This document shows, piece by piece, positions 9,029 to 49,277 of a stretch of DNA of 64,000 nucleotides. The DNA lies in the IMG/VR virus record IMGVR_UViG_3300017613_003292, positions 33,021 to 97,020 of that record; one strand, given 5' to 3'. Within the stretch, counting starts at the first letter, position 1, and the number at the start of each line of letters is the position of its first letter. The DNA comes from a virus. Taxonomy: Duplodnaviria; Heunggongvirae; Uroviricota; Caudoviricetes. The notes beneath the pieces were generated by a model. That model saw nothing but the letters and a program-made list of their open reading frames with translations, was not told the DNA's origin and did no database searches. The position numbers and the translations under genes are program-made.

Positions 9029-9695
9029 TGAAATACCCCCATAATGTTTTTGCAGAACCCCATGGTTCTATTGACTGTGCCCTCTGATCATTGTGACCTA
9101 CCCCCCGTCGACCCCCCACCCCCCCTTTATGATTGATAACAAGGGTTGGCAGATAACTTGAATAACGATCAAGCTTTACTCTTGGTAACCCCGACATCCT
9201 TTCCTTTCGCCCGGGTTCCCCCCATTTGTGCAGCTCACCATCGGCAGATTTTTTTGTCGGATACATCCGAAAGCGCTCTTCGAGTGTTTCGATCAATAGC
9301 TTTTTTGGTGCAATGCACATGCACATACCGCATCTTGGCCGATGGAAATAATAAGTTGGATTCACAAACCATTTGTTGACGTTGTATGCGAATACATCTG
9401 TTGGCGGCCTGAGCCTAAAATGATGAATATTGTAAAGACAGTCATCTTCGCAACAGGCTACGTATTCTGTCCTGGCAGACCTGGCGGCTTCAAGAATCTG
9501 CACATAGATATTATAGATACCGACACCGATATTCCCGAGGCATATATTCATGCCAAAATCGATTGGTTTTTGTGATACGCTGATGATAGGTATCCTGGAT
9601 TCTCTAACCACACCATACAAATGCCGCCTTATCCGGAAGGCCATTTTATTATTAATCTCGTTGGCAGTGTAATATAGTATGGTCAAATCATTCAT
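9021..9695 (-). CDS. putative glycosyltransferase-like protein (paralog of the C-terminal domain of 7388..9028)
   Basis: ISVSQKPIDFG...CCEDDCLY aligns with ISVSQFPIEFG...LCEHDVIY in the upstream gene. 8-nt start/stop overlap. Confidence 0.45.
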   Translation of the reverse strand: MNDLTILYYTANEINNKMAFRIRRHLYGVVRESRIPIISVSQKPIDFGMNICLGNIGVGIYNIYVQILEAARSARTEYVACCEDDCLYNIHHFRLRPPTDVFAYNVNKWFVNPTYYFHRPRCGMCMCIAPKKLLIETLEERFRMYPTKKSADGELHKWGEPGRKERMSGLPRVKLDRYSSYLPTLVINHKGGVGGRRGVGHNDQRAQSIEPWGSAKTLWGYFNG

Positions 9696-9696
9696 A

Positions 9697-10293
9697 TTAT
9701 TTTCTTACAAAAAACCACGACCGCACCTCCCTGTGGTTATGGGTAAGATATAAATCCGTGATATGATGACCCTGGCAATAGGCATTGACTGCAAGTATCA
9801 CACCTTGCCTGCACCTGTCTTCATAATCATGCCCCGCGATAATGCCCTGTGGCCTGACCTTTGGTGTCCATTTTACCAGATCCATCATAACATTGTCAAA
9901 ATCATGGAGACCGTCTATGTAAACGAAATCGAGTGTTTCATTATCGAGAAGATCGGCTGCGTCCTGGCTCGGCATTCGCATGTATTTGACATTGTAATCT
10001 TTTAATTTTTCTTGAGTTTCATGAAAAAACCCTTCATTAACCTCTTCTGTAATACGCCTGCCGTATTTCTTCCATGGATCGACGCATGTCAGTTCGATAT
10101 CCGGGATATTTTTACATAATATTTTAGAAAACACTCCCTGTTGCACACCAATTTCGGCCCCCCTTTTTAACCCCTGTTCTCCCATAAATTGAGCCAGAAA
10201 GGATCGATTGCTGCGCTTAAAACCTGTAAATGGTAATACGTCTCTGCTCTTAATTCTGAATGCGCCTCTGATTGCCGTGTCCATTTTACTCAT
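9697..10293 (-). CDS. Class I SAM-dependent methyltransferase (Methyltransf_24/CmcI-like, probable O-methyltransferase)
   Basis: GAEIGVQQG (motif I) and LDFVYIDGLHDFDNV...AGHDY. I placed the start at ATG 10293-10291, which gives an ATGA overlap with the stop of 10290..11198. The ORF track's start at 10368 is an alternative. Confidence 0.55.
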   Translation of the reverse strand: MSKMDTAIRGAFRIKSRDVLPFTGFKRSNRSFLAQFMGEQGLKRGAEIGVQQGVFSKILCKNIPDIELTCVDPWKKYGRRITEEVNEGFFHETQEKLKDYNVKYMRMPSQDAADLLDNETLDFVYIDGLHDFDNVMMDLVKWTPKVRPQGIIAGHDYEDRCRQGVILAVNAYCQGHHITDLYLTHNHREVRSWFFVRK

Positions 10294-35511: not shown

Positions 35512-36306
35512 ATGATTGAACAAGAAAATAAAGATATAAAACGGTTACTTGTTGATAGTGATGTCCTAAAAAGAAAAAAGGCAATTGGGGACCTTCTTTC
35601 GACCCGTCCGGACATGCATACGGCTATTATTGCCTCAAAATTAAAAACAACTAAGGTTCTTGTCAAATCAGATATTAAAGCGCTTATGGAAGAGGGCCAT
35701 CCTGGAGCCGTACAACGTTATGATAATAATTTCTATCGAGTTCAGAAAAAAAATGAAATCGAAAAAACTTTAAAAGAACATCCTTTTACAGATCAGGTTG
35801 CCCTCGCAAGATACATGGATATGAAATTGTCTGACTTTCGGGCAGAAATCGGTGAAATTAAAAAAGATTCCGATAACGTCGAAAAACAGTCAAAAGAAAT
35901 TGTTGTCCGTCGAAATGCCATAAAAGTTTTTATGCAGGAACATCCAGAGCTATCCCTTGCCGAGGCGGCTGTCGAGTTAGAAATTTCTCTCGATCAGATT
36001 GCCCTTGATCAGGAACATTTTGATGATCCAAGATATACCGATCTGCAACGTAAGGTAAAAATTGAAAGTATGCTGGCATCCATTGCCAAAGATATAAAAG
36101 AATGTCAAAGACAGTTTGAACTTTGCGTTGATGTTGATCCAAGATCCGGCACCAGGTGGAAAGAAGAAGGCCGTAAATATAAGGCTTTATATTCAGACCT
36201 GGCCATGCTGCTTCCAAAACAAGGCATTAATGTTAATCTCAGCATTAACCGGTCACAAAATGAACGCGACGCCATTCGCAAGGCAGCGCAACTGACAAAT
36301 AGTTGA
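35512..36306 (+). CDS. putative terminase small subunit / DNA-binding protein
   Basis: Immediately upstream of and overlapping the TerL start. 264 aa, charged, with a helical N-terminus. Confidence 0.4.
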   Translation: MIEQENKDIKRLLVDSDVLKRKKAIGDLLSTRPDMHTAIIASKLKTTKVLVKSDIKALMEEGHPGAVQRYDNNFYRVQKKNEIEKTLKEHPFTDQVALARYMDMKLSDFRAEIGEIKKDSDNVEKQSKEIVVRRNAIKVFMQEHPELSLAEAAVELEISLDQIALDQEHFDDPRYTDLQRKVKIESMLASIAKDIKECQRQFELCVDVDPRSGTRWKEEGRKYKALYSDLAMLLPKQGINVNLSINRSQNERDAIRKAAQLTNS

Positions 36307-37736
36307 TTATGTTTAAAAAACAAAATAAAGACGATATTTCCAAGACAATTAATGACAGTCTTCTTGCCTACGCCACATATATGTGGCCAAACTATATTTG
36401 TGCAAAACATCATATAAAAATTGCGAGCGCCCTTGAAGATGTTGAATCTGGAAAACTTTCACGCCTTATTATTACAATGCCGCCTCGTGCGGGGAAAACT
36501 ATGTTGGTTTCAGAATTCTTTCCAGCGTGGTATTTGGGACGTAACCCAGCGCATCAAGTCATTGCCGCCACCTACTCACACGATAAGGCTGGGGATACGG
36601 GGCGTAAAATTCGGAACCAGCTTATTGAGCCGGATTTCCAGGCAGTCTTCCCGAAGTGCGTTGTTTCGCCTGACAGTAAAGGCGCGAATAAACTCAGCAC
36701 TAAAAATGGTGGGGTCTGTGTGTCGGTCGGTATTGGTGGTGCTATTACTGGCCGTGGTGCTCATCTTTTTCTTATTGATGATCCGATTAAATCCAGAGAA
36801 GAAGCCGACAGTGAGCGTGTCCGAGAACGACTGATTAATTGGTACAAGGGCGTTGTGTATACCAGGCTTATGGGTAAAAATGCAGTTATAATCATCATGA
36901 CGCGTTGGCACTTTTTTGATCTTGTCGGATATCTTCTGGATAAACAGGAAGAAGATGGCGACAAGATGCGTGAAAAATGGACCGTTCTCAACCTTCCAGC
37001 TGTTGCCAATTCAAAGGAAGATCTATTAGGTCGAAAACCTGGCGAGTCCATCTGGCCGGATTATCCTATATTTGACATAGAGCGGCTCAACGAGACAAAA
37101 CGTATTATCGGTTCCAGAGAATGGAATGCTCAGTTTCAACAGCAACCCTTATCTGAAGAAGGTGGTATGGTCCAGTTGAACTGGTTCAAACGGTATCATC
37201 ATAAACAGAAATTGCATGATGTGAGAAAAATTATCTGCTCTTGGGACACAGCTTACAAGGAAACGCAATTGAATGACCCTTCCTGTGGTACCGTATGGGC
37301 CATGATTGGTAATGATTTTTATCTTATTGATATGATCAATAGACATATGGAGTATCCCAAATTAAAAAAAACGGTTGTAAAGCTTTATGAGAAATACTGT
37401 AATCACACTCGCGCAACTGTCCCCGTCCTGATAGAAGATGCAGCAAGTGGACAAAGCTTGATTCAAGAGCTTAAAGAAGACACGTTAATCCCTGTAATAA
37501 AAATTAGACCTGAATCAAATAAAAAAACCCGCCTGTCTGAAGTTACCGCTTTAATTGAATCCGGACGGGTATACCTTCCGGATGATGCCTGGTGGTTGAC
37601 AGATTATGAGACGCAGATGTGCCGGTTCCCACTTGACCAGCATGATGATATGGTTGATTCAACCTCTCAATTTTTAAGATGGGCAGGCAAACCAAAATTC
37701 AAAAGACGACACGGCAGGCAATTGCTGTGGAAATAA
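36303..37736 (+). CDS. terL: Terminase large subunit
   Basis: P-loop-like segment RLIITMPPRAGKTMLVSEF; C-terminal RNaseH-like nuclease region (WDTAYKETQLNDPSCGTVWAMIGNDFYLIDM ... FPLDQHDDMVDS). Confidence 0.85.
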   Translation: MIMFKKQNKDDISKTINDSLLAYATYMWPNYICAKHHIKIASALEDVESGKLSRLIITMPPRAGKTMLVSEFFPAWYLGRNPAHQVIAATYSHDKAGDTGRKIRNQLIEPDFQAVFPKCVVSPDSKGANKLSTKNGGVCVSVGIGGAITGRGAHLFLIDDPIKSREEADSERVRERLINWYKGVVYTRLMGKNAVIIIMTRWHFFDLVGYLLDKQEEDGDKMREKWTVLNLPAVANSKEDLLGRKPGESIWPDYPIFDIERLNETKRIIGSREWNAQFQQQPLSEEGGMVQLNWFKRYHHKQKLHDVRKIICSWDTAYKETQLNDPSCGTVWAMIGNDFYLIDMINRHMEYPKLKKTVVKLYEKYCNHTRATVPVLIEDAASGQSLIQELKEDTLIPVIKIRPESNKKTRLSEVTALIESGRVYLPDDAWWLTDYETQMCRFPLDQHDDMVDSTSQFLRWAGKPKFKRRHGRQLLWK

Positions 37737-37748
37737 GGAGATATTCCA

Positions 37749-39317
37749 ATGACAACAGATGCCTATTACGATAAATACAATGAAGAAATTGATGAAAAGA
37801 ATAACATTTATAAAAATAATATTGATGACTGGAAACTTTATGGACTGTCCTATAAAGGCGGAGATGAATTTATTGAATATTCTCTGCATAAACATGATCG
37901 TGAATCATATGCAAACCATGTTGAACGACAAAATGAAGGGATTTGTTTTAATTATTCATCGGCTATTATTGACCTGTTTAATTTTTACCTGACGGAGAAA
38001 CCTTCTTCCAGAGAATTTGAAGCCATTACCTTGCGCGGTCGAAAAAATCCAAAACAGGACTCAGATATAAAGAACCGTATAAAACGATCAATTGGTCAGT
38101 TCGATAAAAAGGATACCCAATGGTTAATGTTTTTACAGGATGCGGATCTACACAACAAAAATTTCGACGTATTTTTGAACCATACCCAAAAAATTGCATC
38201 GATTTATGGCAGTGCCGGTATTTTGATTTCGAAACCAAACGTTTCCTACCAGACCCGGGCCGAAGAGATCAAAAATCGTGTGTACCCTTTTGTAACCGTT
38301 TTTAGACTGCCGGATATTTACGACTGGGAGTTTACAAGAAATATCAATAGCGGTCGGTTTGAGCTGTCTTATCTCAAACTTAAGGAGTCTGATACTGAAT
38401 ATTTAATATGGTTTAAAAGCAAATGGGAGCGTTGGCAAAAAATTGAGAATGAAACAAAACTCATAGATTCTGGCGAAAATCCATTGGGTGAAATTCCATT
38501 CGTTTGGGTTCCTAATATCACAAGCCTCGACAGCTGGTATATCGGTGAATCTGACATAAAAGAGATTAGTCGCATTTCAGCATCAATTATTAGAAACATA
38601 TCCTGCGGTGAAGAAATGCTGAAATTTTGTGGATTTCCAATGCTTGTCCTTCCAAAAGAGGCCGAGGGGTATGACACTGACGACGGAGAAGAAGACCAAC
38701 CTTCCGGCCCACGAGCGGTCCTTGAGAAAGATCCGGAATACGGTACAAATGGATCTCCAGAGTGGCTTGAGCCTCAAATTCTCGATGCTACCGAAGCCAA
38801 CCTTGCGTGGACAGACCGTAAGGTTGATGAAATTTATAGAATTGCACATCTTTCTGGTGTGCACGGTCAAAGAAAATCTAATAATGAGGTTGCATCTGGC
38901 CTTGCTTTGAGGTATGAATTCCAACAGTTAAATTCTGTGCTTCTCCAAAAAGCACAAAATCTTTCAGAGGCTGAATTGCAGGTTATTAAATACTGGCTTA
39001 AATGGCAGAACCATGGCGAGATGATCGATAACATTACTGTAACTCGACCAAAATCTTTTTCAGTCGATGAGCTGGCACTTGACATCGATAACCTTTTCTC
39101 TGCAATTTCAGAAATCCCGAGCGAACATTTTAAGAAACTGGCATTAAAACACATTTCTCTTCAAATGCTGCCTGACATGAAAGACGCTGACATCGAAAAG
39201 GTGACAAAAGAAATTGATAAGAATGCAAAGCTTGACAAACCAGAAGCTCAGAGTGCTTCCCAAAAAAATGATCCCAAAAAAAAGGATGATTTAAAAAAAA
39301 TTGACAAGGAAGAATAA
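37749..39317 (+). CDS. Portal protein (522 aa)
   Basis: Gene immediately after TerL; size and acidic composition fit. Confidence 0.6.
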   Translation: MTTDAYYDKYNEEIDEKNNIYKNNIDDWKLYGLSYKGGDEFIEYSLHKHDRESYANHVERQNEGICFNYSSAIIDLFNFYLTEKPSSREFEAITLRGRKNPKQDSDIKNRIKRSIGQFDKKDTQWLMFLQDADLHNKNFDVFLNHTQKIASIYGSAGILISKPNVSYQTRAEEIKNRVYPFVTVFRLPDIYDWEFTRNINSGRFELSYLKLKESDTEYLIWFKSKWERWQKIENETKLIDSGENPLGEIPFVWVPNITSLDSWYIGESDIKEISRISASIIRNISCGEEMLKFCGFPMLVLPKEAEGYDTDDGEEDQPSGPRAVLEKDPEYGTNGSPEWLEPQILDATEANLAWTDRKVDEIYRIAHLSGVHGQRKSNNEVASGLALRYEFQQLNSVLLQKAQNLSEAELQVIKYWLKWQNHGEMIDNITVTRPKSFSVDELALDIDNLFSAISEIPSEHFKKLALKHISLQMLPDMKDADIEKVTKEIDKNAKLDKPEAQSASQKNDPKKKDDLKKIDKEE

Positions 39318-39988
39318 TGCCAGTCTATCGCGAACAAATCAGGCCATTTATAGAATTAACAGAATGTGAAGATTATCTTGAAATTGGATTTGGAGATGGC
39401 ATTCATTTTAAAAGTGTGCCTGTTGAACAGAAAACCATTATTTCGCCCATTTGTCATGCTACTTATCCTCACCGAGCATACCCAATGGAATCTGACTTGG
39501 CATTTGAATTGGAAGAATTCAAAGACGAAGGTCCGTTTGAGGTAGCTTTTATCGATGGTCTTCACAATTATCCCCAAATTGTTAGGGATTTGCATAATGT
39601 CTTGCCTTATATGACAACTGATGGTGTAATTCTTTGTCATGATATTAATCCATTTGTTATGGATAAAAATATTATCGAACTTGCGACGACGTATCCAAGA
39701 CCGCAAGAGGCTATGGGGTGGCTTGGGGATGCATGGAAAATATTATTCCATGTAAAATATACAATGCCACATCTTGACTATGCCGTTATTTCAGATTTTC
39801 CTGGATTTTTAGTTTTGTGGGAAACAGAATCTGAACGCAAAATTGAATATAAAAAATATGGATCTGATGATCCAGATTATCCATATAAGGATAAAACAAT
39901 TGAATTTGGCATAAAACATCAAAATGAATTTTATTTTGGCACGATTGAAGAGGCTGTAAAGCGATACGAACATTTCTTTATAGGATAA
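39317..39988 (+). CDS. Class I SAM-dependent methyltransferase (Methyltransf_24-like)
   Basis: YLEIGFGDG (motif I) and VAFIDGLHNYPQIVRDL...CHD. Its start overlaps the portal stop. Confidence 0.55.
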   Translation: MPVYREQIRPFIELTECEDYLEIGFGDGIHFKSVPVEQKTIISPICHATYPHRAYPMESDLAFELEEFKDEGPFEVAFIDGLHNYPQIVRDLHNVLPYMTTDGVILCHDINPFVMDKNIIELATTYPRPQEAMGWLGDAWKILFHVKYTMPHLDYAVISDFPGFLVLWETESERKIEYKKYGSDDPDYPYKDKTIEFGIKHQNEFYFGTIEEAVKRYEHFFIG

Positions 39989-39990
39989 AT

Positions 39991-40677
39991 ATGAACTTTT
40001 CTATTCTGCTTCCCACCCGTGGTCGTCCAGACCGCGTTGAAACATTTCTTGATTCAATTGAAGACACAGCTGATAACGTCGATAGAATTGAGGTCGTTAT
40101 ACGGATTGACCGTGATGATGATTTGATGATGCGACATAAATTCAAACCACGGTCTCTTGTATTCAGACTCCTTATCGGCCCAAGAGCCAAATGTCTTTCC
40201 GATTGCTGGAATGAATGCTGGCGACATTCAAAGAATGATATTCTCATGCTCGCCGGTGATGACTTAATTTTCAGAACACCTTTGTGGGATAGTGAAATCC
40301 GTCGTGAAATAAAATCCTTCCCTTATAATATCGGATTAGTATACGGTGCGGATAATAACCCGTATCGCAGAAAAAATGCGACCCATCCTTTTGTTCATAG
40401 AACATGGACGGAACTTGTCGGATACTTTACACCACCCAACCTGGACTATGGTAATGATACATGGCTTGAAATGGTTGCAAAAAAGATAAACCGGATTACA
40501 TTCAGGCCAGACATTTTGATTGAACACATGCATTACCGATATAAAAAACGAAATCGTGACCAGACAGATGTTGATCTTAGAAATAGATATAAGTCCTGGG
40601 GTGGTGGAGAAAAATTCTATACCCTTGAGCATTTAATAGATCATGACGCTGAAAAATTGAAAAGGAGTATTTCGTGA
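39991..40677 (+). CDS. Glycosyltransferase (GT-A fold, GT2-like)
   Basis: FSILLPTRGRPDRVETFLDS is the typical GT2 N-terminus; acidic AGDDLIF. Confidence 0.5.
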   Translation: MNFSILLPTRGRPDRVETFLDSIEDTADNVDRIEVVIRIDRDDDLMMRHKFKPRSLVFRLLIGPRAKCLSDCWNECWRHSKNDILMLAGDDLIFRTPLWDSEIRREIKSFPYNIGLVYGADNNPYRRKNATHPFVHRTWTELVGYFTPPNLDYGNDTWLEMVAKKINRITFRPDILIEHMHYRYKKRNRDQTDVDLRNRYKSWGGGEKFYTLEHLIDHDAEKLKRSIS

Positions 40678-40760
40678 TTTTTTCTATTTTGCTTCCTACC
40701 CGTGGCAGGGGAAAATTTAATGAACTACAAGGGAAAAGAAAGAATAAGAAAGGGATATAA
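40678..40760 (+). pseudogene. Remnant duplicate of a GT N-terminus (IFSILLPTRGRGKFNELQGKRKNKKGI*) in the intergenic spacer
   Basis: ttttctattttgcttcctacccgtggcagggg at 40684-40715 is ~85% identical to 39997-40028 (ttttctattctgcttcccacccgtggtcgtcc). Confidence 0.35.
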
Positions 40761-41750
40761 ATGGATTACGAACCTGATCCTTATGTTTTTAAAAAGGATG
40801 AAACGATAGGCTTTGGTGAAGCACTCTCAACTTCTACATTTAACAATTGGTCACAACTTGTAACCGACAACCCTCCATGGCCGTTTACGGCCAAGGCGAG
40901 GTTCCCTTCATTGGCTGATTTCTCTGCATACCAGGGTCAGATTCCAGAGGGATGTTTGTGCCTCATAGATGGGACAGATATTCCCGACAGATTTAGATTC
41001 TCTGACTATTACTATATTAGAACACTGCTTTATAACGACTATTACTATCAACTTTTTATGTACAAACGGAAGGGTTCAAATGTTAACGTTGAGGTTCCAA
41101 AGATTCCGTTTGGGGATAATGTGAAGTCCTTTTCTATTGCGTTCATGTGTACTGATGACATGCCATATGTAGGACAACTCATTTCTACTGTAAAGTATTA
41201 TCATAATCTAATTTCAATTTCCCTGGATATCAAAGCTGACATAAATGTTGCTTTTTTTGGCGAAAGAATACCATCGGAGATAGAATCAATTTGTAATTAT
41301 AAATTATTCCCATTAGATACTTTTCATATTGCGTATGCTCGCAACTGTAGTATTGATATGTGTAAAAAGCAACATATTTTTATAACTGACATTGATAAGT
41401 TGTTTCCATATGATAGCATGCGGCAAATTATCGAGTACTACCATACACTACCTCACCAGGGCATATTAAATATTAGGCAAAGCCGGTTGGACCCACCAAA
41501 TCTATTTGGAAATCGTTTGGTACTTGAAAGTACTGGTGGTTATTGGGATCTTTTTAGGGCAGGATATTGTGAGGACGATGAGATGCTTATCGAACTGGCA
41601 AGGCAGGGGATAATGCCAGTAGTCATACATGTTCCATATGCCCATGAAAAACATCCTACTTCAAAAAGAACAACCGAGGTTACTTATAATGAGAATAGAA
41701 TGATTCTTCGTAAAATTCTTTTAGATGGACGAGGGTATATTTATAAATAG
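40761..41750 (+). CDS. putative glycosyltransferase-like protein (GT-A-like, 329 aa)
   Basis: IFITDIDKLF (DxD-like) and an FMCTDD segment. It follows the GT N-terminus remnant and may be its decayed partner. Confidence 0.4.
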   Translation: MDYEPDPYVFKKDETIGFGEALSTSTFNNWSQLVTDNPPWPFTAKARFPSLADFSAYQGQIPEGCLCLIDGTDIPDRFRFSDYYYIRTLLYNDYYYQLFMYKRKGSNVNVEVPKIPFGDNVKSFSIAFMCTDDMPYVGQLISTVKYYHNLISISLDIKADINVAFFGERIPSEIESICNYKLFPLDTFHIAYARNCSIDMCKKQHIFITDIDKLFPYDSMRQIIEYYHTLPHQGILNIRQSRLDPPNLFGNRLVLESTGGYWDLFRAGYCEDDEMLIELARQGIMPVVIHVPYAHEKHPTSKRTTEVTYNENRMILRKILLDGRGYIYK

Positions 41751-41759
41751 GGGGTAGTA

Positions 41760-42584
41760 ATGCTTTATGTATATGGAGGGGCTGGGTTTGTAGGAAGAAA
41801 TCTTATAAAAAGAACATCGTATGACGCCGTACCAATTCCAAGAAATCAATATTCTGTGCAATCAAGTAAAACTGATGATATTTTATATCTAATCAGTACT
41901 GTCCACAACTATCACATCCATTCGGATATCCATAAGGACGTCGATGTAAATTTAACTACTTTTCTGACCGTGTTAGATAACGCCAGAAAGAATGGATGTC
42001 GTACCTTCAATTTTATATCTTCCTGGTTTGTGTATGGAGATTGTGAATTACCAGCAACAGAAACAACATATTGCAACCCTAAGGGTTTCTATTCAATAAC
42101 AAAACGTACCGCAGAACAATTATTGATTTCATATTGCGAGACATTCAATATAAATTATAGAATTCTTAGATTGTGTAATGTGTATGGGGAGGATGATGAT
42201 AAGGTTTCGATCCAACGAAATGCGATGCAGTTCCTTATAAAAGAATTGATTGCCGGTAACGATATCAAATTGTATGACGGTGGATCTACAATAAGGGATT
42301 ATATGCATGTTGATGATGTTGCTGATGCTATAGATATTTGTCTTAAGTATGCTCCAATTAATACTGTTGTAAATATCGGAAGTGGTAGGAAGATATTCTT
42401 TAAGGATATCATGAGACAGGCAAAAGAAATTTCTGGTTCAAAGGCTAATATTTTATCTATGGAGCCTACCGATTTCCATAAGGTTAGCGGTGTAAAAGAT
42501 TTTTACATGGATACAACTGTATTGAAAAGTTTGGGGTTTAAACAAAAGATTTCAATCCATGATGGTATTACGAGGCTGCTTTGA
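41760..42584 (+). CDS. NAD-dependent epimerase/dehydratase (extended SDR), sugar-nucleotide modifying
   Basis: GGAGFVGRNL (GxxGxxG) and YSITKRTAE (YxxxK). Confidence 0.7.
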   Translation: MLYVYGGAGFVGRNLIKRTSYDAVPIPRNQYSVQSSKTDDILYLISTVHNYHIHSDIHKDVDVNLTTFLTVLDNARKNGCRTFNFISSWFVYGDCELPATETTYCNPKGFYSITKRTAEQLLISYCETFNINYRILRLCNVYGEDDDKVSIQRNAMQFLIKELIAGNDIKLYDGGSTIRDYMHVDDVADAIDICLKYAPINTVVNIGSGRKIFFKDIMRQAKEISGSKANILSMEPTDFHKVSGVKDFYMDTTVLKSLGFKQKISIHDGITRLL

Positions 42585-43639
42585 AAAAAATAAATCAATA
42601 CACTGAATTCAATTTTGACAATCCGTTCGGAAGCCAGGCAAAGATGTTGTACCATATTGATCGGTTGTTTAGTTATACGAAATGTGGTGATACCTGGCCC
42701 GTCTTTCTTGAGATAAACTTGACTGATACATGCAACCTTTCATGTTCATGGTGCATCTCAGAAAATCGGTTGGACAGCACGATTGATACAAGCAAGTTGA
42801 AAGAATTTTTAAACAGCTTCAAAGAACACGGTGGGAAAGCGGTGACTTTTAGCGGTGGTGGTGAGCCTACACTTCATCCGGATTTCCACGAAATAGTTAC
42901 GCACGCAAGGACTGCCGGACTCGAACTTGGCTTGATGACAAATGGGTTCTTTCCAAAGAAATATATAGATTTGATTGGGAATAATTTTAAGTGGATCAGG
43001 TTTTCTCTTGATACGGTTGATCATGACAAATATAAAAAATGGAAAAATGTAAATGCTGTGTTGACAGTTTTGAACAACATAAGGCTGTTGAGCGAAAAGA
43101 ATGTCAAGGTTGGCGTGAATTGTAATGTTAATGCAGAGATGACCGTTAAGGATGTTTTGGATTTAATAGATACGGTCTCACCTCAATGTAATTATATTCA
43201 ATTCAGACCCGTCCTGCCCAGATATTTCAAAAGAGAAAAATCTGATTTAAATTCATCTGTATGGACTTATCTTCAAAAGAATTTTGTAACCAATCCAAAG
43301 ATAAATTTTAGCTTTGACAAACTGAAGGATGTTATGACTGAGAATTGGTTTCCATTTAATAGTTGTGAAGGTCATTTCTTTTCTCCAGCTTTGAATTCTG
43401 ATGGCAACCTTATGGTTTGCATGTATCATTTTGGAGACGAAAGATTTGCTTTTGGGAATATATATGAATCTGATTTTGGGAATATTTGGAATAGCAGTAG
43501 AAGAAAAAATGTTATACGTTTTATTAGACAGCTGGATTATCGTAACAATTGTCAAGTCTGTTGTAAACTGTGTGAACTGAATAAATTTATCTTTTTCTTA
43601 ACAAACCCAAACAATGATATGGATATTAACTTTTTATAA
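42581..43639 (+). CDS. Radical SAM enzyme (with C-terminal Cys-rich SPASM/twitch-like region)
   Basis: CNLSCSWC (CxxxCxxC) near the N-terminus, a glycine-rich SAM region FSGGGEPTLHP, and additional C-terminal Cys clusters. Confidence 0.7.
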   Translation: MKKINQYTEFNFDNPFGSQAKMLYHIDRLFSYTKCGDTWPVFLEINLTDTCNLSCSWCISENRLDSTIDTSKLKEFLNSFKEHGGKAVTFSGGGEPTLHPDFHEIVTHARTAGLELGLMTNGFFPKKYIDLIGNNFKWIRFSLDTVDHDKYKKWKNVNAVLTVLNNIRLLSEKNVKVGVNCNVNAEMTVKDVLDLIDTVSPQCNYIQFRPVLPRYFKREKSDLNSSVWTYLQKNFVTNPKINFSFDKLKDVMTENWFPFNSCEGHFFSPALNSDGNLMVCMYHFGDERFAFGNIYESDFGNIWNSSRRKNVIRFIRQLDYRNNCQVCCKLCELNKFIFFLTNPNNDMDINFL

Positions 43640-43699
43640 GTCTAATCGATTTCCAAAAAAACGTATGGAAGATATTCAGAAATTAAGGAGTGCTATGGT

Positions 43700-44548
43700 A
43701 TGAAAATTTATGCGGTATATCGTATCCTATACGGAGAAGACTTTGTTGAAGAATCCATATTATCAATTGCAGATTATGTTGATAAAATTTTCGTATTTTA
43801 TGATACAAGGCCTTGGGGCCAGATAATGGAAGTAGAATACATGGGAGATAAAATCGTAATCCCCGAAAAGATAGACAATGTCATGGATAAAATAAAAGGA
43901 ATGAATCATTCAAAAATTGAAATATTGTTTGCACGGTATGAAACGAACAAGAATATCGTTACAAATTATGTCAATGACATAATTCTTCCGAATTATGATG
44001 CACCAGATGTAATATGGTTTATTGAACCGGATCATGTTATCCATGAAAAAACCGGACCAAAAATATTAGATAGCATTAAACAAAATGAAATAAACCAAAA
44101 ATATAATTGCATGTTTACAAAACAACATGAAATTTGGCGAGGTTTCCGACATGAAGTCTATCCTGAAAGAAAGAGACGCCTTTCTACTGTTATATGGCAT
44201 TTAAATTCACTACGAGACAAAAAAATGCCAGAGACCGGTAGACATGCTGATGCCAAAAATAAAAAAATAGATACTACCTTTCTCGAACACAAAATTCATA
44301 ACTATGGCTTTGCCGTTTCTGAAAAAACAATGTATTGGAAACATATCATTACAATTGGTTTTTCGAGATACATAGGTGATGCAATGCCGAATATTTCATG
44401 GTATAATGAAAAATGGCTTAAGTGGGACTATAAAACAAATAATGACTGCCTTGAAATTTCTAAAGGAAGAGAATGCAATATAAAAACAACGGTTCCATAT
44501 GATATAAACGGCCATCCCTCACTAATGAAAAACTTTACTAGGGAATAA
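43700..44548 (+). CDS. hypothetical protein, possible GT-A-like glycosyltransferase (282 aa)
   Basis: Context plus an IWFIEPDH acidic motif; weak. Confidence 0.35.
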   Translation: MKIYAVYRILYGEDFVEESILSIADYVDKIFVFYDTRPWGQIMEVEYMGDKIVIPEKIDNVMDKIKGMNHSKIEILFARYETNKNIVTNYVNDIILPNYDAPDVIWFIEPDHVIHEKTGPKILDSIKQNEINQKYNCMFTKQHEIWRGFRHEVYPERKRRLSTVIWHLNSLRDKKMPETGRHADAKNKKIDTTFLEHKIHNYGFAVSEKTMYWKHIITIGFSRYIGDAMPNISWYNEKWLKWDYKTNNDCLEISKGRECNIKTTVPYDINGHPSLMKNFTRE

Positions 44549-45094
44549 ATGAACAAAAAAGAACATGTGGAACAACTTATCGGATTTGAATATAAAGGAA
44601 TACCAGTATCACAACAGAAGGCGTCCATCCCTCTCATAGTAAATATTGTCACTGAATTTAATATTAAAAATATCATTGAACTCGGAACTTTGTATGGCGG
44701 ATCGTCTGTAATATTAAAAGACAGTTGCCCAGATATAAATTTATATACTTTTGATAAAAAAGATTTAAGACATAACATCGTAAAGAAAAGAAAAGATATT
44801 ATATTTTACAAAGAAGACATCCTTAAAAAAGATCAACCAAGCCCAAATGTAATAAAATTGCTTGAATATCCAGAACCAGCAATTTTGTTTTGTGACAATG
44901 GAAATAAAAAAGAAGAAGTCAGAACATATACAAAATATTTAAAACATAGAGATATAATTGGCATGCATGATTGGGGAACAGAGATATTCTTGGAAGACAT
45001 CTCTGATATAATTGATAGGTATCAATTACATCCAATACATAAAAATATTTTCAAAACTAATGGCTTTCTTGTTAGATTTTTTCAAAAAAAATAA
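44549..45094 (+). CDS. putative SAM-dependent methyltransferase (181 aa)
   Basis: IIELGTLYGGSS (motif I-like) ... MHDWG; ATGA overlap with the upstream gene. Confidence 0.4.
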   Translation: MNKKEHVEQLIGFEYKGIPVSQQKASIPLIVNIVTEFNIKNIIELGTLYGGSSVILKDSCPDINLYTFDKKDLRHNIVKKRKDIIFYKEDILKKDQPSPNVIKLLEYPEPAILFCDNGNKKEEVRTYTKYLKHRDIIGMHDWGTEIFLEDISDIIDRYQLHPIHKNIFKTNGFLVRFFQKK

Positions 45095-45139
45095 ACCACA
45101 AGAAGTATTGAGCTTCAATAAAAAAAGGGAGACTTTATT

Positions 45140-46474
45140 ATGAATATCGGTTTTGTTGGACTTGGAAAGCTGGGGCTGCCGTGTGCATTGGTGATTGCAT
45201 CAAAAGGCCATAAAGTGTGTGGCTATGATGTCGATGAAAAAATTGCTGATTATTTAAAAGAAAAACAAATTCCATACCAGGAGGAGGGAGTTCCAGAACT
45301 GTTGAAAACAGAAACAGTTGACTTCGTATCTATGGAAGAGGTTGTCGGACGATCTGATATCATTTTCGTTGCTGTGCAGACGCCGCATGAGGAATTATAT
45401 GAAGGCACTACCCGCCTGCCAGATGAACGGGTTGATTTTGACTATCGTTTTCTTGTAAACGCCATGACGCAAATCAGTAATATTGCAGCTGAAAAAGAAA
45501 AACCAATTACAGTCGTTATTATATCGACTGTTCTTCCTGGAACAATTTCACGCACCATTTACCCTGTTATAAGCGACTATATCGATCTCATGTACAATCC
45601 CTTCTTTATTGCCATGGGAACCACGGTCAGAGATTTTTTTAACCCGGATATTATTTTGATTGGCGATCATTATGTACGAGCAGATGACGGCATTGAAAAA
45701 AATATTCTGATTGATTTTTACAAAACAGTTATAAACGTACCCGTACTTTATAAAGTTATGTCTATTGAGAGCGCTGAGCTGACAAAAGTAGCATACAATA
45801 CCATTATCACTTCAAAAATTAATATTGCCAATACGATTATGGAAATCTGTCACAAGATTTCATACGCCGATGTTGACGAGGTGACTGATGCGCTCAAAGA
45901 CTGCCATCTCAGGATTACCAGCCCGAGATATATGGATGGTGGAATGGGTGATGGCGGTGGCTGCCATCCAAGAGACAACATTGCCATGTCCTGGCTTTCC
46001 CGAAAATTGAATTTGAGCCATGACGTTTATGAAGATCTGATGAAAACCCGGGAAGCCCAGACTGAATGGTTGGCAGATCTTATCATAGAAGAATGTAAAA
46101 AAGTCGACTTGCCACCTGTTTTACTTGGATATGCCTTCAAGCCTGAAACTAATATCACAACCGGGTCCCCGGCGTTGTTACTTGAAAAAATCATGGAAGA
46201 AAAAGAATTTCCATTTTATGCCAAACATGACCCCTATTATGAAAATTTTGAACTTATTAAACGGTTTGTTTCAAGGACCCCTGCTGTATATTTTATTGGC
46301 ACACAACATTTGCTGTTCAGACAGTTATCATTTAAAGAAAAATCCGTACTAATTGACCCCTTCAGATACATGCCATATGTGGTACCGCAGATAAAAAACA
46401 TCAAATATGTCTATATTGGGAGTCATGAAGCCGGGACTGGAATAAAAGATGAAAATTATACATCCTATCTCTAA
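45140..46474 (+). CDS. UDP-glucose/GDP-mannose 6-dehydrogenase family (nucleotide-sugar dehydrogenase)
   Basis: N-terminus MNIGFVGLGKLGLPCALVIASKGHKVCGYD is the classic NAD-binding start, with catalytic-Cys region GGGCHPRD. Confidence 0.75.
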   Translation: MNIGFVGLGKLGLPCALVIASKGHKVCGYDVDEKIADYLKEKQIPYQEEGVPELLKTETVDFVSMEEVVGRSDIIFVAVQTPHEELYEGTTRLPDERVDFDYRFLVNAMTQISNIAAEKEKPITVVIISTVLPGTISRTIYPVISDYIDLMYNPFFIAMGTTVRDFFNPDIILIGDHYVRADDGIEKNILIDFYKTVINVPVLYKVMSIESAELTKVAYNTIITSKINIANTIMEICHKISYADVDEVTDALKDCHLRITSPRYMDGGMGDGGGCHPRDNIAMSWLSRKLNLSHDVYEDLMKTREAQTEWLADLIIEECKKVDLPPVLLGYAFKPETNITTGSPALLLEKIMEEKEFPFYAKHDPYYENFELIKRFVSRTPAVYFIGTQHLLFRQLSFKEKSVLIDPFRYMPYVVPQIKNIKYVYIGSHEAGTGIKDENYTSYL

Positions 46475-46652
46475 TGTTGTTCCAATCAAGGATGCTCAAT
46501 GGCAAGATTTGCTTCGGGATATGAAAAATTTTGTAGAGAATCAAAAAAAAGAGCTTGCTGTTGTAGAACGTAAAAATCGATCTTTGAAAAGACGAAATTT
46601 TAATTTAAAAGTCGCAAATATAGATTCAAGCAAGAAAATTGACGATTTTTAG
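46449..46652 (+). CDS. hypothetical small protein (67 aa)
   Basis: ORF overlapping the end of the dehydrogenase gene; last plus-strand gene before the convergent junction. Confidence 0.3.
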   Translation: MKIIHPISNVVPIKDAQWQDLLRDMKNFVENQKKELAVVERKNRSLKRRNFNLKVANIDSSKKIDDF

Positions 46653-48251: not shown

Positions 48252-48269
48252 GTTCGTAGGTTTCCTTCT

Positions 48270-49262: not shown

Positions 49263-49277
49263 AATATATCTCCAGAA

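What the first reader, a model, noticed from the sequence alone, without database searches (positions are those of the whole stretch)
39317..46474. Seven-kilobase glycan biosynthesis/tailoring island immediately after the portal gene
Packed in one plus-strand operon right behind terL and the portal gene are: two CmcI-type methyltransferases, three GT-A-like glycosyltransferases, an SDR sugar-nucleotide epimerase/dehydratase, a radical SAM enzyme, and a UDP-glucose 6-dehydrogenase. Add the >=5 GT domains in the virion operon and the phage carries a near-complete pathway to make and attach a modified (methylated, possibly uronic-acid or deoxy) glycan. The radical SAM plus SDR pairing suggests an unusual sugar, since C-methylation, epimerisation or deoxygenation all use such enzymes. 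Its placement inside the structural gene block points to virion glycosylation rather than host-surface modification, but the target is unknown.
Basis: partly seen in the sequence, partly recalled or inferred. Interest (0 to 1): 0.75.

Follow-up and report, generated by a model that had tools for sequence, protein, structure and literature searches.

The report
Phage sugar-making island beside portal gene
An uncultured tailed phage carries eight genes for making, attaching and methylating unusual sugars right after its portal gene, and it also encodes a 915-residue serine-rich tail protein that may be the sugar-coated target, although no glycan has been measured.

Summary
Coordinates 39317-46474 are eight tightly packed plus-strand genes directly after terL and portal:
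- one clear and one tentative class-I methyltransferase
- three GT-A glycosyltransferases, two of which needed family or fold evidence
- a short SDR
- a radical SAM enzyme with one auxiliary Fe-S cluster
- a nucleotide-sugar 6-dehydrogenase whose substrate is not resolved

The island is a mosaic. Genes g3-g5 are shared with the closest relative at 79% nucleotide identity. The g1-g2 and g6-g8 blocks are window-specific insertions. Island GC is 36%, against 42% for the rest of the window.

The SDR-then-radical-SAM pair is a fixed two-gene cassette. The SDR sits directly upstream in 16 of 17 non-redundant loci, all read as phage-like, and nothing else is conserved. No cultured phage has a close homologue and its chemistry is unknown.

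No island or virion glycosyltransferase has a membrane segment, so this is not a gtrABC-type seroconversion cassette.

A candidate target exists. ORF 11263-14010 is a 915-residue (SPSE)n protein, 47% Ser+Thr. It lies in the tail module, immediately upstream of two glycosyltransferases and a methyltransferase. Relatives share its N-terminal anchor and carry Ser-rich tails of different sequence.

I favour virion glycosylation at about 0.5. It is not shown. This is a new variant of a known kind.

The parts
36303..37736 (+). Large terminase (context; first recognisable gene of the plus-strand string)
   Evidence: Pfam Terminase_6N 5.4e-15, Terminase_6C 2.6e-14
37749..39317 (+). Portal protein (context; its stop overlaps the g1 start by 1 nt)
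   Evidence: phrog_145 portal 3.6e-44; tblastn to annotated portals at 23-29% identity
39317..39988 (+). g1: class-I SAM methyltransferase (Methyltransf_24). It lies in window-specific insertion 1.
   Evidence: Pfam 8.3e-11; motifs EIGFGDG and IDGLH. The homologue in relative L002 lies elsewhere in that genome.
39991..40677 (+). g2: GT-A (GT2-like) glycosyltransferase. It lies in window-specific insertion 1.
   Evidence: phrog_14945 glycosyltransferase 8.6e-31; Pfam GT2 1.2e-4; absent from L002
40761..41750 (+). g3: rare GT-A-like glycosyltransferase (C-terminal ~210 aa) with an uncharacterised N-terminal ~110 aa. Part of the core shared with L002.
   Evidence: 43 relatives in the full HMMER search; 15 of 36 members hit Pfam GT2; PDB profile search puts TarP on top at 3e-3; D210/D212 near-invariant; 82% aa identity to L002
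41760..42584 (+). g4: short extended-SDR of the nucleotide-sugar epimerase/reductase type. It has no TDE dehydratase motif and is translationally coupled to g5.
   Evidence: Pfam Epimerase 9.2e-34; best PDB match 4zrm UDP-glucose 4-epimerase 1e-20; motifs GGAGFVG, SSWFVYG, YSITK; 4-nt overlap with g5
42581..43639 (+). g5: radical SAM enzyme with a CX3CX2C motif and one Cys-rich auxiliary (twitch/partial SPASM) cluster site. It belongs to an uncharacterised family found on phage-like contigs.
   Evidence: Pfam Radical_SAM plus SPASM. More than 250 homologues, with none of the 120 listed on a contig above 171 kb. Invariant C51/C55/C58 and C262/C280/C324/C328. AF2 pLDDT 90. Fold neighbours are SuiB, SkfB, DesII, anSME and BlsE.
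43700..44548 (+). g6: GT-A fold glycosyltransferase of a family with no Pfam model; relatives are often fused to TPR repeats. It lies in window-specific insertion 2.
   Evidence: 130 homologues, many ~465 aa with C-terminal TPR; AF2 pLDDT 95.3; top Foldseek hits are SunS/ThuS glycocin S-glycosyltransferases at 1e-8, then SpsA; invariant E109 and D111
44549..45094 (+). g7: probable class-I methyltransferase (tentative). It lies in insertion 2.
   Evidence: CmcI 3.6e-3 and Methyltransf_24 0.18, both below cut-off; pairwise E=1e-3 over 132 aa to the Methyltransf_24 protein at 9697-10368; ELGTLYGG motif
45140..46474 (+). g8: nucleotide-sugar 6-dehydrogenase (UDP-Glc/GDP-Man dehydrogenase family). 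It lies in insertion 2.
   Evidence: Pfam N-terminal and central domains; phrog_9148 8.1e-81; TIGR03026 181.7 bits against a cut-off of 189.8; AlgD 2.3e-29 versus UGDH 1.4e-27; GGGCHPRD
26713..29532 (-). 939-aa multidomain protein just upstream of the tail tube gene: unknown N-terminal domain, GT-A, Lys-rich linker, GT2, then a TPR-containing C-terminus
   Evidence: Pfam GT2 6.7e-15 (2 stretches) and weak TPR hits; phrog_13126 5.7e-20 and phrog_14179 1.6e-5; tail tube at 25491-26687, Phage_tube_2 1e-51
11263..14010 (-). 915-aa serine-rich (SPSE)n repeat protein with a conserved ~45-aa N-terminal anchor. This is the candidate O-glycosylation target.
   Evidence: Translation; 47% Ser+Thr; imperfect DNA repeats at 65-88% match. 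Relatives have the same anchor on the operon strand with different Ser-rich tails.
10290..11198 (-). GT2 glycosyltransferase immediately downstream of the Ser-rich gene
   Evidence: Pfam GT2 3e-14
9697..10368 (-). Methyltransf_24 methyltransferase in the tail module
   Evidence: Pfam 2.8e-18
9021..9695 (-). 224-aa protein paralogous to the C-terminal domain of the next gene; function untested
   Evidence: BLASTP 31% identity, E=6e-19 to residues 316-496 of 7388-9028; no family hit
7388..9028 (-). 546-aa protein with an N-terminal GT2 domain and a C-terminal domain shared with 9021-9695
   Evidence: Pfam GT2 3e-11
14010..15563 (-). 517-aa tail-module protein directly upstream of the Ser-rich gene (context; used to find relatives)
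   Evidence: 30 related metagenome loci; no Pfam hit

Best explanation
The island is a phage-borne, fully cytoplasmic sugar workshop.

Proposed roles:
- g8 oxidises a host nucleotide-sugar to a uronic acid.
- g4 (SDR) and g5 (radical SAM with one auxiliary cluster) work as an obligate pair and convert a nucleotide-sugar into an unusual sugar. My preferred guess is radical dehydration followed by NAD(P)H reduction, which is a deoxygenation in the manner of AprD4/AprD3.
- g2, g3 and g6 (GT-A) transfer sugars.
- g1 and g7 methylate them.

Together with at least four more GT domains and a methyltransferase in the tail module, these enzymes most likely O-glycosylate the phage's own virion proteins. 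The leading candidate is the 915-aa serine-rich fibre-like protein at 11263-14010.

Shown: gene identities, the fixed SDR-rSAM cassette, the mosaic structure, the absence of membrane components, and the existence and conservation of the Ser-rich protein family.

Inferred: substrates, the radical SAM chemistry, and the glycosylation target.
For: - Gene identities.
- SDR-rSAM cassette: the SDR lies directly upstream in 16 of 17 non-redundant loci, with a gap of -34 to +3 nt in 15 of those 16. No other neighbour is conserved.
- Nucleotide-linked substrate: the rSAM core is closest to nucleotide-acting enzymes, namely MoaA 1e-14 and viperins and the pVip HMM 3e-24. Fold neighbours include the sugar enzymes DesII (TMq 0.62-0.67) and BlsE (TMq 0.67, TMt 0.71). 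A HAD + sugar-phosphate nucleotidylyltransferase fusion lies beside the cassette in three loci.
- SDR type: it lacks the TDE dehydratase motif and keeps Ser/Tyr/Lys, as expected of a reductase or epimerase.
- No membrane segments in any GT or MT.
- Protein-directed hints: g6's best structural matches are the peptide glycosyltransferases SunS and ThuS, and its relatives are often TPR-fused. The 939-aa GT next to the tail tube gene also carries TPR.
- Ser-rich protein: it sits directly upstream of GT-MT-x-GT in the tail module. Its family keeps an N-terminal anchor while the tail varies between SPSE, SSSSESQS and poly-Ser. That is the pattern expected if composition, not sequence, is selected.
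- Other phages: sugar-tailoring genes, including distant rSAM relatives, are embedded in virion modules of unrelated phages (MW202801; L033).
- Precedent: mycobacteriophage virion glycosylation (Freeman et al. 2023, as cited in PMC11256854 and PMC12619734).
Against: - There are no chemical data of any kind; the phage is known only from a metagenome.
- The capsid and tail tube proteins lack the Ser/Thr-rich C-terminal tails that are glycosylated in mycobacteriophages.
- The site behaves as a variable cargo site with lower GC. That is typical of accessory genes aimed at the host.
- Only one genome links the Ser-rich protein with the GTs, because relatives' contigs break inside the repeats.
- The nucleotide-sugar dehydrogenase is not a conserved partner of the cassette. 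It occurs only in the window and in L012.
- The top Foldseek hits for g5 are peptide-modifying enzymes (SuiB, SkfB).
- Soluble GT2 enzymes can also act on lipid-linked intermediates at the inner face of the membrane.
Confidence: 0.5

Rival explanations
1. Host cell-surface remodelling. The enzymes alter the infected or lysogenised cell's LPS, capsule or other envelope glycan, for example to block superinfection or change receptor display. This is how comparable cyanophage clusters are usually interpreted.
For: - Cyanophages carry up to 13 GTs plus NDP-sugar epimerases and a radical SAM gene, read in the literature as cell-wall synthesis or modification genes (PMC12801897).
- The island is a variable, low-GC cargo site.
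- g6-family genes also occur on bacterial chromosomes.
Against: - No membrane-spanning component, flippase, polymerase or polyprenyl-phosphate transferase is present among the island or virion-module GTs.
- GT genes are interleaved with tail genes and a Ser-rich structural-module protein.
- No integrase or other lysogeny gene was seen among the ORFs I scanned in this window; smaller ORFs were not scanned and the remaining part of the 97-kb contig (~33 kb) is unseen.
Confidence: 0.25
2. DNA hypermodification. The GTs attach sugars to hydroxymethylated bases of the phage genome to evade restriction, and the island supplies the unusual sugars.
For: - Virus-encoded GTs that decorate DNA with diverse glycans are documented (Pyle et al. 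2024, cited in PMC12619734).
- All the enzymes are soluble.
Against: - No thymidylate-synthase-like or dCMP hydroxymethylase gene was found among the window ORFs scanned.
- TPR-fused GTs and the SunS-like fold point to protein or peptide acceptors.
- The GTs sit in virion modules, not with replication genes.
- The remaining part of the 97-kb contig (~33 kb) was not available, so this is not excluded.
Confidence: 0.08
3. The radical SAM enzyme acts on a protein rather than a sugar. It could work like anSME (Ser to formylglycine) or like a RiPP maturase on the Ser-rich or another virion protein, with the SDR handling a separate step.
For: - Top Foldseek neighbours are the peptide-modifying SPASM enzymes SuiB and SkfB, and anSME is also among the hits.
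- A Ser-rich protein exists in the same genome.
Against: - Strict translational coupling to a nucleotide-sugar-type SDR across 16 of 17 loci.
- The model shows only one long N-terminal helix (residues 16-35), not an RRE-like peptide-recognition domain.
- A nucleotidylyltransferase lies beside the cassette in three loci.
- The core is most similar to MoaA and viperin.
Confidence: 0.07
4. Synthesis of a small glycosylated metabolite (an aminoglycoside- or nucleoside-antibiotic-like compound) rather than a glycoconjugate on a macromolecule.
For: The nearest characterised sugar radical SAM enzymes (DesII, BlsE, BtrN) all come from antibiotic pathways.
Against: - No aminotransferase, cyclase, export or resistance gene lies in the island.
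- There are seven or more GT domains in the window (three in the island, four in the virion module), several inside the virion module.
Confidence: 0.04

Closest known systems
Mycobacteriophage virion glycosylation (Che8, Corndog and Myrna type; Freeman et al. 2023, seen here only through citing papers PMC11256854 and PMC12619734)
   Same: The phage encodes its own soluble glycosyltransferases (some with a methyltransferase) that decorate its own structural proteins. In some of those phages the GT genes lie among structural genes.
   Different: - There the glycans sit on C-terminal tails of the capsid and tail tube subunits. Here those proteins lack such tails, and the candidate acceptor is a separate 915-aa Ser-rich protein.
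- Here the phage also encodes nucleotide-sugar tailoring enzymes, including a radical SAM/SDR pair.
- The host and lineage are unrelated, and nothing has been tested.
Glycan gene clusters of marine cyanophages and pelagiphages (P-SSM2, S-SCSM1, S-SCSM2R; HTVC008M)
   Same: Many GTs, NDP-sugar epimerases, methyltransferases, a radical SAM gene and a UDP-Glc/GDP-Man dehydrogenase family gene are clustered in a phage genome.
   Different: - Those clusters are in myoviruses, mostly outside the virion module, and are interpreted as host cell-wall modification.
- Their radical SAM genes are only partial or distant matches to g5 (31-39% identity over about a third of the protein).
- No Ser-rich acceptor has been noted for them.
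Glycosylation of serine-rich repeat adhesins (GspB, Fap1 with GtfA/B and further GTs) and of SD-repeat proteins (SdgA/SdgB) in Gram-positive bacteria (own knowledge)
   Same: A long alternating Ser-x repeat protein is encoded next to several glycosyltransferases that would build short O-glycans on the serines.
   Different: - No GtfA/GtfB (GT-B) pair, no accessory Sec system and no cell-wall anchor.
- The protein is in a phage tail module.
- My recollection that the 939-aa protein's N-terminus resembles the GT-D (DUF1792) domain got no support from a PDB sequence search.
Seroconversion cassettes of temperate phages (gtrABC, O-antigen acetylases and polymerases)
   Same: Phage-encoded GT genes that change a glycan.
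   Different: Those depend on integral membrane proteins (GtrA flippase, GtrB bactoprenol glucosyltransferase, a serotype-specific Gtr). None of the proteins here has a membrane segment.
Sugar-modifying radical SAM enzymes: DesII, BlsE, BtrN and the AprD4/AprD3 pair; also viperin
   Same: - Radical SAM core with (except viperin and DesII) an auxiliary cluster.
- Fold similarity: BlsE TMq 0.67, DesII 0.62-0.67.
- Core sequence similarity to viperin and MoaA.
- Pairing of a radical enzyme with an NAD(P)-dependent reductase recalls AprD4/AprD3 deoxygenation (own knowledge).
   Different: - Sequence similarity is confined to the core, with 15-20% identity in fold alignments.
- g5 scores far below every curated family cut-off.
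- It has a distinct conserved N-terminal motif (NPFGSQAKM..H.DR) and a compact C-X17-C ... CxxCC auxiliary motif.
- The family was found only on contigs of 171 kb or less, read as phage-like.
Virus-encoded glycosylation machinery of giant viruses (chloroviruses, mimiviruses; own knowledge)
   Same: The virus supplies its own nucleotide-sugar enzymes, GTs and methyltransferases to glycosylate capsid or fibril proteins in the cytoplasm.
   Different: Those are eukaryotic viruses with unrelated structural proteins. No radical SAM step has been described there, to my knowledge.

Membership tests
Radical SAM superfamily, SPASM/twitch subgroup | CX3CX2C motif binding the SAM-cleaving [4Fe-4S] cluster | tested here: met
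   C51-X3-C55-X2-C58 is invariant in 40 family members; Pfam Radical_SAM 2.6e-19
Radical SAM superfamily, SPASM/twitch subgroup | C-terminal Cys-rich domain for auxiliary Fe-S cluster(s); full SPASM has 7-8 Cys for two clusters | tested here: inconclusive
   Pfam SPASM 3e-9, but only C262, C280, C324 and C328 are invariant and C327 near-invariant. That is enough for one cluster (twitch-like), not two. Cluster content needs spectroscopy.
Prokaryotic viperin (pVip) | Full-length match above curated cut-off, including the C-terminal nucleotide-binding extension | tested here: not met
   NCBIfam viperin_w_prok 64.8 bits against a cut-off of 180. The PADLOC pVip hit (3e-24) covers only the core, residues 45-215. 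The C-terminus is a Cys-rich domain instead.
Extended SDR nucleotide-sugar epimerase/dehydratase family | N-terminal GxxGxxG NAD(P) motif and catalytic Ser/Thr-Tyr-Lys (YxxxK) | tested here: met
   GGAGFVG at residues 6-12, SSW at 87, YSITK at 111-115; Pfam Epimerase 9.2e-34. The N-terminal Rossmann part is about 35 aa shorter than in solved relatives.
NDP-hexose 4,6-dehydratase (RmlB/Gmd type) | Thr-Asp-Glu catalytic motif before the VYG strand | tested here: not met
   g4 has SSWFVYG. Only the partners in L017, L018 and L020 have SSDEV. TIGR01181 gives 87 bits against a cut-off of 365.
UDP-glucose/GDP-mannose (nucleotide-sugar) 6-dehydrogenase family | N-terminal NAD domain, central domain with catalytic Cys (GGxCxxKD), C-terminal nucleotide-sugar binding domain | tested here: met
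   N-terminal domain 7e-28, central domain 1.4e-14, C-terminal domain weak at 7e-3; GGGCHPRD at 272; TIGR03026 181.7 bits against a cut-off of 189.8
UDP-glucose 6-dehydrogenase specifically | Substrate specificity for UDP-glucose | tested here: inconclusive
   The best solved relative is GDP-mannose 6-dehydrogenase (2.3e-29), with UDP-glucose dehydrogenase at 1.4e-27. All equivalog models score far below cut-off.
GT-A fold glycosyltransferases (GT2-like) | Rossmann-like GT-A fold with a DxD-type metal/nucleotide-sugar motif | tested here: met
   - g6: AF2 pLDDT 95, Foldseek to SunS, SpsA, TarP and others at E down to 1e-8, invariant E109-x-D111.
- g3: family members hit GT2, D210-x-D212.
- g2: phrog_14945 8.6e-31.
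CmcI / rhamnosyl O-methyltransferase family (PF04989) | Match to the family model above its cut-off | tested here: not met
   g1 matches Methyltransf_24, not CmcI. g7 matches CmcI at 17.5 bits against a cut-off of 23.2. Both look like class-I MTases of a related group; their substrates are unknown.
Seroconversion / O-antigen modification cassette (gtrABC type) | Integral membrane flippase, bactoprenol-linked GT and membrane-bound serotype-specific GT | tested here: not met
   The maximum 19-residue hydropathy is below 1.4 for all GTs and MTs. The only value above 1.6 is the Rossmann strand of g8. No such Pfam families were found.
Phage virion glycosylation system (mycobacteriophage type) | Phage-encoded GTs | tested here: met
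   Three GT-A genes in the island and at least four GT domains in the virion module
Phage virion glycosylation system (mycobacteriophage type) | Glycans covalently attached to virion proteins | not testable with these tools
   This needs purified particles or co-expression plus mass spectrometry. Only a candidate acceptor was identified.
Phage virion glycosylation system (mycobacteriophage type) | Ser/Thr-rich C-terminal extensions on capsid and tail tube subunits as acceptor sites | tested here: not met
   The capsid and tail tube sequences end without such extensions.
DNA glycosylation hypermodification systems | Enzyme making 5-hydroxymethyl-pyrimidine nucleotides (thymidylate-synthase-like) encoded by the phage | tested here: inconclusive
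   None was found among the window ORFs scanned, but the remaining part of the 97-kb contig (~33 kb) is outside the window.
Serine-rich repeat protein glycosylation (GtfA/GtfB type) | GT-B GtfA/GtfB initiating pair and accessory Sec export | tested here: not met
   No GT-B (Glycos_transf_1 or GT4) hits in the window; all GT hits are GT-A/GT2. The resemblance is limited to the acceptor's Ser-x repeat.

The most novel reading that the evidence does not exclude
The phage builds a mucin-like fibre on its tail. The 915-residue (SPSE)n protein would be densely O-glycosylated by seven or more phage GT domains with methyl-capped glycans. Those glycans would contain a sugar made by a previously undescribed SDR + radical SAM pathway restricted to phage-like contigs, for example radical deoxygenation or decarboxylation of a nucleotide-sugar. 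That would be a bacterial-virus counterpart of the glycosylated fibrils of giant viruses, and it would give a new radical SAM reaction in nucleotide-sugar chemistry.
Probability: 0.3. Interest if true: 0.85.

Novelty: new variant of a known kind. Interest (0 to 1): 0.65.

Why it matters
Virion glycosylation has been shown experimentally only for a few actinobacteriophages. There it shields particles from antibodies.

This locus offers a directly testable case from a different, uncultured phage lineage, because the sugar-making genes, the transferases and a candidate acceptor are all in one genome.

Separately, the SDR-radical SAM cassette is widespread: more than 250 homologues, found so far only on contigs of 171 kb or less that I read as phage-like. 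It has no characterised member. Solving its reaction would add a new step to nucleotide-sugar biochemistry and would explain a recurrent accessory module in environmental phages.

If the target instead proves to be the host envelope, the locus is still a useful example of a membrane-independent phage glycan module.

Tried and rejected
- Close relatives in cultured phages: megablast of 36303-46474 found nothing. The best protein match to g5 has 25% identity.
- Exact look-up of g5 and of its 100% identical copy P0001 gave no contig, so the source contig could not be read beyond the window.
- IMG/VR scans with single proteins (portal, g5) found nothing. An alignment-based scan was needed.
- GT-D (DUF1792) idea for the N-terminus of the 939-aa protein: no support from PDB sequence search or Pfam. 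Dropped.
- 9021-9695 as a fifth GT domain: hhalign against the g6 and g3 family profiles gave probability below 1%. It is only a paralogue of the C-terminal domain of 7388-9028.
- Strand of the Ser-rich ORF: the antisense frame, (DGDS)n, is also open, its wobble positions coincide with the sense frame, and codon statistics could not decide. It was settled by relatives that keep the N-terminal anchor on the operon strand, with other Ser-rich tails whose antisense frames are not DGDS.
- Promoter and terminator scan: counts were no higher than in shuffled sequence, so it was not used.
- Known defence system: PADLOC gave only the core-level viperin similarity.
- Genomic context of a bacterial g6-TPR homologue: uninformative, with no glycan cluster around it.
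- PDB sequence searches for g1 and g2: no useful hits.
- Literature searches for a described SDR/radical SAM nucleotide-sugar pathway, and for Ser-rich glycosylated phage fibres: nothing matching in the held library.

Full report
**1. What is there**

The window is part of a tailed phage genome.

On the minus strand lies a long virion operon:
- P22-type coat protein, 33223-34413 (1e-25)
- small head-tail genes
- tail tube, 25491-26687 (Phage_tube_2 1e-51)
- 1953-aa tape-measure-like protein
- tail and fibre genes with BNR/sortilin and lectin-like domains

A plus-strand gene string diverges from it:
- a 264-aa protein
- terL, 36303-37736
- portal, 37749-39317 (phrog_145 3.6e-44; annotated portals at 23-29% identity)
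- eight further genes ending at 46474, where convergent minus-strand genes begin (DUF2201 metallopeptidase/VWA at 46956-48251, then an AAA ATPase)

Gene spacing runs from -4 to +83 nt, and most starts have purine-rich RBS-like sequences. A consensus promoter/terminator scan was uninformative.

**2. Gene by gene**

- g1 is a class-I methyltransferase: Methyltransf_24 8e-11, with EIGFGDG and IDGLH motifs.
- g2 is a GT-A glycosyltransferase: phrog_14945 8.6e-31, Pfam GT2 1.2e-4.
- g3 had no family hit. A word-seeded search found only one relative. A full HMMER scan found 43.
  - 15 of 36 of these match Pfam GT2.
  - The family profile's best solved matches are the GT-A enzymes TarP (3e-3) and TarS-type glycosyltransferases.
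  - D210-x-D212 is near-invariant.
  - I read g3 as a divergent GT-A domain with an extra N-terminal ~110 residues of unknown role.
- g4 is an extended SDR: Epimerase 9e-34, best solved match a UDP-glucose 4-epimerase at 1e-20.
  - It has GGAGFVG and YSITK.
  - It has SSWFVYG in place of the Thr-Asp-Glu motif of 4,6-dehydratases.
  - Its first Rossmann segment is shortened.
- g5 is a radical SAM enzyme with a SPASM-model match.
- g6 had no Pfam, PHROG, NCBIfam or PDB sequence hit.
  - It has 130 homologues, many fused to C-terminal TPR repeats or a methyltransferase domain.
  - An AlphaFold model built on 33 sequences is confident (pLDDT 95.3).
  - The model has a GT-A fold.
  - Its best matches are the glycocin S-glycosyltransferases SunS and ThuS (E 1e-8 to 4e-6). 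After those come SpsA, heparosan and chondroitin synthases, and TarP.
- g7 is only tentatively a methyltransferase: CmcI 3.6e-3, and pairwise E=1e-3 to the tail-module Methyltransf_24 protein.
- g8 is a nucleotide-sugar 6-dehydrogenase with the catalytic GGGCHPRD. Its substrate is open, because GDP-mannose dehydrogenase is marginally the best solved match.

Three labels were too specific: 'CmcI-type', 'UDP-glucose' and 'near-complete pathway'. On the last, no nucleotidylyltransferase is present.

**3. The island is a mosaic at a variable site**

The only close relative found is L002, a 16.5-kb JGI contig. Its gene order is terL (with an intein), portal, g3, g4, g5, and then directly the DUF2201 gene.

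Nucleotide alignment shows:
- the g3-g5 core (40734-43656) at 79% identity, higher than the flanking structural genes (69-75%)
- 39317-40733 (g1, g2) as a window-specific insertion
- 43657-46954 (g6, g7, g8 and a small minus-strand ORF) as a second window-specific insertion
- a g1 homologue elsewhere in L002, in the opposite orientation

Island GC is 35.8%, against 42.2% for the rest of the window.

The position after the portal is conserved between the two relatives, but the content there is fluid. That weakens 'placement' as an argument about function.

**4. The SDR-radical SAM cassette**

g5 has more than 250 homologues at about 45-60% identity, nearly all ~350 aa. None of the 120 listed lies on a contig longer than 171 kb.

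I read contexts from metagenome look-ups and IMG/VR. After removing duplicates there are 17 loci, all of which look phage-like.
- In 16 of them an SDR gene lies directly upstream of the radical SAM gene.
- In 15 of those 16 the gap is -34 to +3 nt.
- No other gene family recurs across lineages.
- A fused HAD-phosphatase/sugar-phosphate nucleotidylyltransferase is adjacent in three loci.
- A dehydrogenase like g8 appears in only one other locus.

The family alignment shows:
- an invariant CX3CX2C
- four invariant and one near-invariant C-terminal cysteines, enough for a single auxiliary cluster
- a conserved N-terminal NPFGSQAKM..H.DR motif

Evidence on the closest known enzymes:
- Profile search of the PDB puts MoaA, SkfB and viperins first, with BlsE, BtrN and DesII further down.
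- A PADLOC viperin model matches the core at 3e-24, but the curated viperin model is far below its cut-off.
- The AlphaFold model (pLDDT 90) resembles SuiB, SkfB, DesII, anSME and BlsE. BlsE gives the best mutual TM-scores, 0.67 and 0.71.

My inference is that the pair acts on a nucleotide-linked sugar. The SDR lacks the dehydratase motif but keeps the reductase/epimerase triad. Viperin, DesII and AprD4 are radical lyases/dehydratases (own knowledge). On that basis the simplest model is radical dehydration by g5 followed by NAD(P)H reduction by g4, giving a net deoxygenation. Decarboxylation of a uronate (BlsE-like, using the g8 product) and oxidation/epimerisation are alternatives. This is a hypothesis, and I put the deoxygenation version at roughly one in three.

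No cultured phage has a close homologue, and I found no description of this pathway in the held literature.

**5. What is the target?**

Five observations bear on this.

(a) None of the island proteins or the virion-module GTs and MTs has a predicted membrane segment. No flippase, polymerase or lipid-carrier transferase is present.

(b) GT genes sit inside the virion operon at two places.
- A 939-aa protein lies immediately upstream of the tail tube gene. It has two GT-A domains and a TPR-containing C-terminus.
- A GT2 / Methyltransf_24 / 224-aa / GT2 block lies at 7388-11198.

(c) Directly upstream of that block is ORF 11263-14010. Its 915 residues are almost entirely SPSE / SPSTSPSASE / SPSVSPSASM repeats, with 410 Ser and 189 Pro. 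Its start overlaps the stop of the preceding tail gene.
- The antisense frame is also open and encodes (DGDS)n. Codon statistics could not decide between the two frames.
- I therefore searched metagenomes with the upstream 517-aa protein and found 30 related loci.
- In these, the next gene on the same strand begins with the same ~45-residue duplicated [WF]-[SD]-x-G anchor (MAVNDPIWSYGKS...DDDIWSYGKDELRHEY).
- The tail that follows the anchor differs between lineages:

| Loci | Tail after the anchor |
|---|---|
| L051 | SPSE repeats |
| L032, L034 | SSSSESQS[IV]S repeats |
| L040, L053 | near-pure poly-Ser |
| other loci | non-Ser repeat or folded modules |

- This settles the reading frame. 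It also shows a family with a fixed anchor and exchangeable distal modules.
- Several of those distal modules are serine-rich with unrelated repeat units. That is the signature of selection on composition, as in mucin-like O-glycosylated domains.

(d) g6's nearest structures are peptide glycosyltransferases, and its relatives are frequently TPR-fused. That hints at protein acceptors.

(e) Sugar-tailoring genes, including distant g5 relatives, are embedded in virion modules of unrelated phages.
- In podovirus MW202801 the order is capsid gene, radical SAM, GT, PhyH, MT, NodB, GT, then a tail gene.
- In L033 the order is head-tail connector, GT9, radical SAM/deacetylase, split transketolase, then radical SAM/SPASM.

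Against virion glycosylation:
- there are no chemical data
- the capsid and tube lack Ser/Thr-rich tails
- only one genome links the Ser-rich protein to the GTs, because relatives' contigs break in the repeats
- similar cyanophage clusters are read as host cell-wall genes

I put virion-protein glycosylation at about 0.5, and the Ser-rich protein as a principal acceptor at about 0.4.

**6. Comparison with known systems**

The closest functional precedent is mycobacteriophage virion glycosylation, known to me here through citing papers. The closest genomic precedents are the GT/epimerase/radical SAM clusters of cyanophages and the HTVC008M cluster. The acceptor resembles bacterial serine-rich repeat adhesins only in its Ser-x periodicity; the defining GtfA/B and accessory Sec components are absent.

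The locus is therefore not a member of the gtrABC, SRRP or viperin families. It is a new variant within the known kind 'phage-encoded glycan machinery'. Two elements appear undescribed:
- the fixed SDR-radical SAM cassette
- the anchor-plus-serine-rich-tail protein family in tail modules

**7. Verdict**

- The mechanism is inferred, not shown.
- Interest is 0.65. It is not categorically new, but it is a compact, testable system with one enzyme pair of unknown chemistry and a plausible mucin-like phage fibre.

Noticed in passing
window 11263-14010 (minus): A 915-aa protein made almost entirely of SPSE-type repeats (47% Ser+Thr; GC 55% in a 42% genome). It has a conserved N-terminal duplicated W-S-x-G anchor. 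The antisense frame is also open. Relatives show that the Ser-rich frame is the real gene.
   Followed up: yes
L029-L058 (relatives of window 14010-15563): The gene after the 517-aa tail protein forms a family with a fixed ~45-aa anchor and swappable distal modules: SPSE repeats, SSSSESQS repeats, poly-Ser, beta-strand-like LDTLVITEYAATV repeats, or non-repeat domains. Contigs often end inside the Ser repeats.
   Followed up: partly
window 26713-29532 (minus): A 939-aa protein directly upstream of the tail tube gene: unknown ~250-aa N-terminal domain, GT-A, Lys-rich linker (KKKRIRNKKKKNKKKK), GT2, then TPR. My recollection of a GT-D/DUF1792-like 'RFGDGE' motif at its N-terminus found no support.
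   Followed up: partly
window 9021-9695 and 7388-9028 (minus): The 224-aa protein is a paralogue (31% identity, E=6e-19) of residues 316-496 of the neighbouring 546-aa GT2 protein. The shared domain (YYT.N ... ISVSQ.PI.FG ... CE.D) has no family assignment. A homologue follows the anchor-family gene in L052.
   Followed up: partly
L002 1907-2917 and 3758-5165: The closest relative's terL carries an intein (Intein_splicing/LAGLIDADG) that is absent from the window. Its portal is called as two ORFs (173 and 287 aa), which could be a frameshift or an assembly error.
   Followed up: no
window 46626-46955 (minus) and 46449-46652 (plus): Small ORFs fill the gap between g8 and the DUF2201 gene. This stretch belongs to the window-specific insertion (it is absent from L002).
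   Followed up: no
window 46956-50457 (minus): A DUF2201 metallopeptidase/VWA protein, a 330-aa unknown and an AAA ATPase converge on the island. They are conserved in L002. Their role is unknown.
   Followed up: no
window 3-6786 (minus): A protein of more than 1217 aa runs off the window start and has Phage-tail_3 and concanavalin-like (Laminin_G_3) domains. Two BNR/sortilin beta-propeller proteins follow. These are probably glycan-binding host-recognition proteins.
   Followed up: no
L028 (MW202801.1 19640-24303): An unrelated 40-kb podovirus has a distant g5 homologue (25% identity) immediately after its major capsid gene. It is followed by GT, PhyH dioxygenase, methyltransferase, NodB-like deacetylase and GT, and then tail genes.
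   Followed up: partly
L033 3232-7648: A phage related through the 517-aa tail protein has a GT9, a radical SAM/polysaccharide-deacetylase fusion, a split transketolase (TPP) and a g5-like radical SAM/SPASM gene, all right after a head-tail connector gene.
   Followed up: partly
L027 (Pelagibacter phage HTVC008M 126811-132312): A 456-aa hypothetical protein with partial similarity to g5 (residues 25-145) lies next to a methyltransferase, a carbamoyltransferase, a NadE-like gene and a UDP-Glc/GDP-Man dehydrogenase family gene.
   Followed up: no
L003 and L010 SDR partners; L017, L018, L020 SDR partners: In two loci the SDR's YxxxK lysine aligns with Arg or Asn. In three loci the adjacent SDR has a dehydratase-like SSDEV motif instead. 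The partner SDR is therefore not one orthologous group throughout.
   Followed up: no
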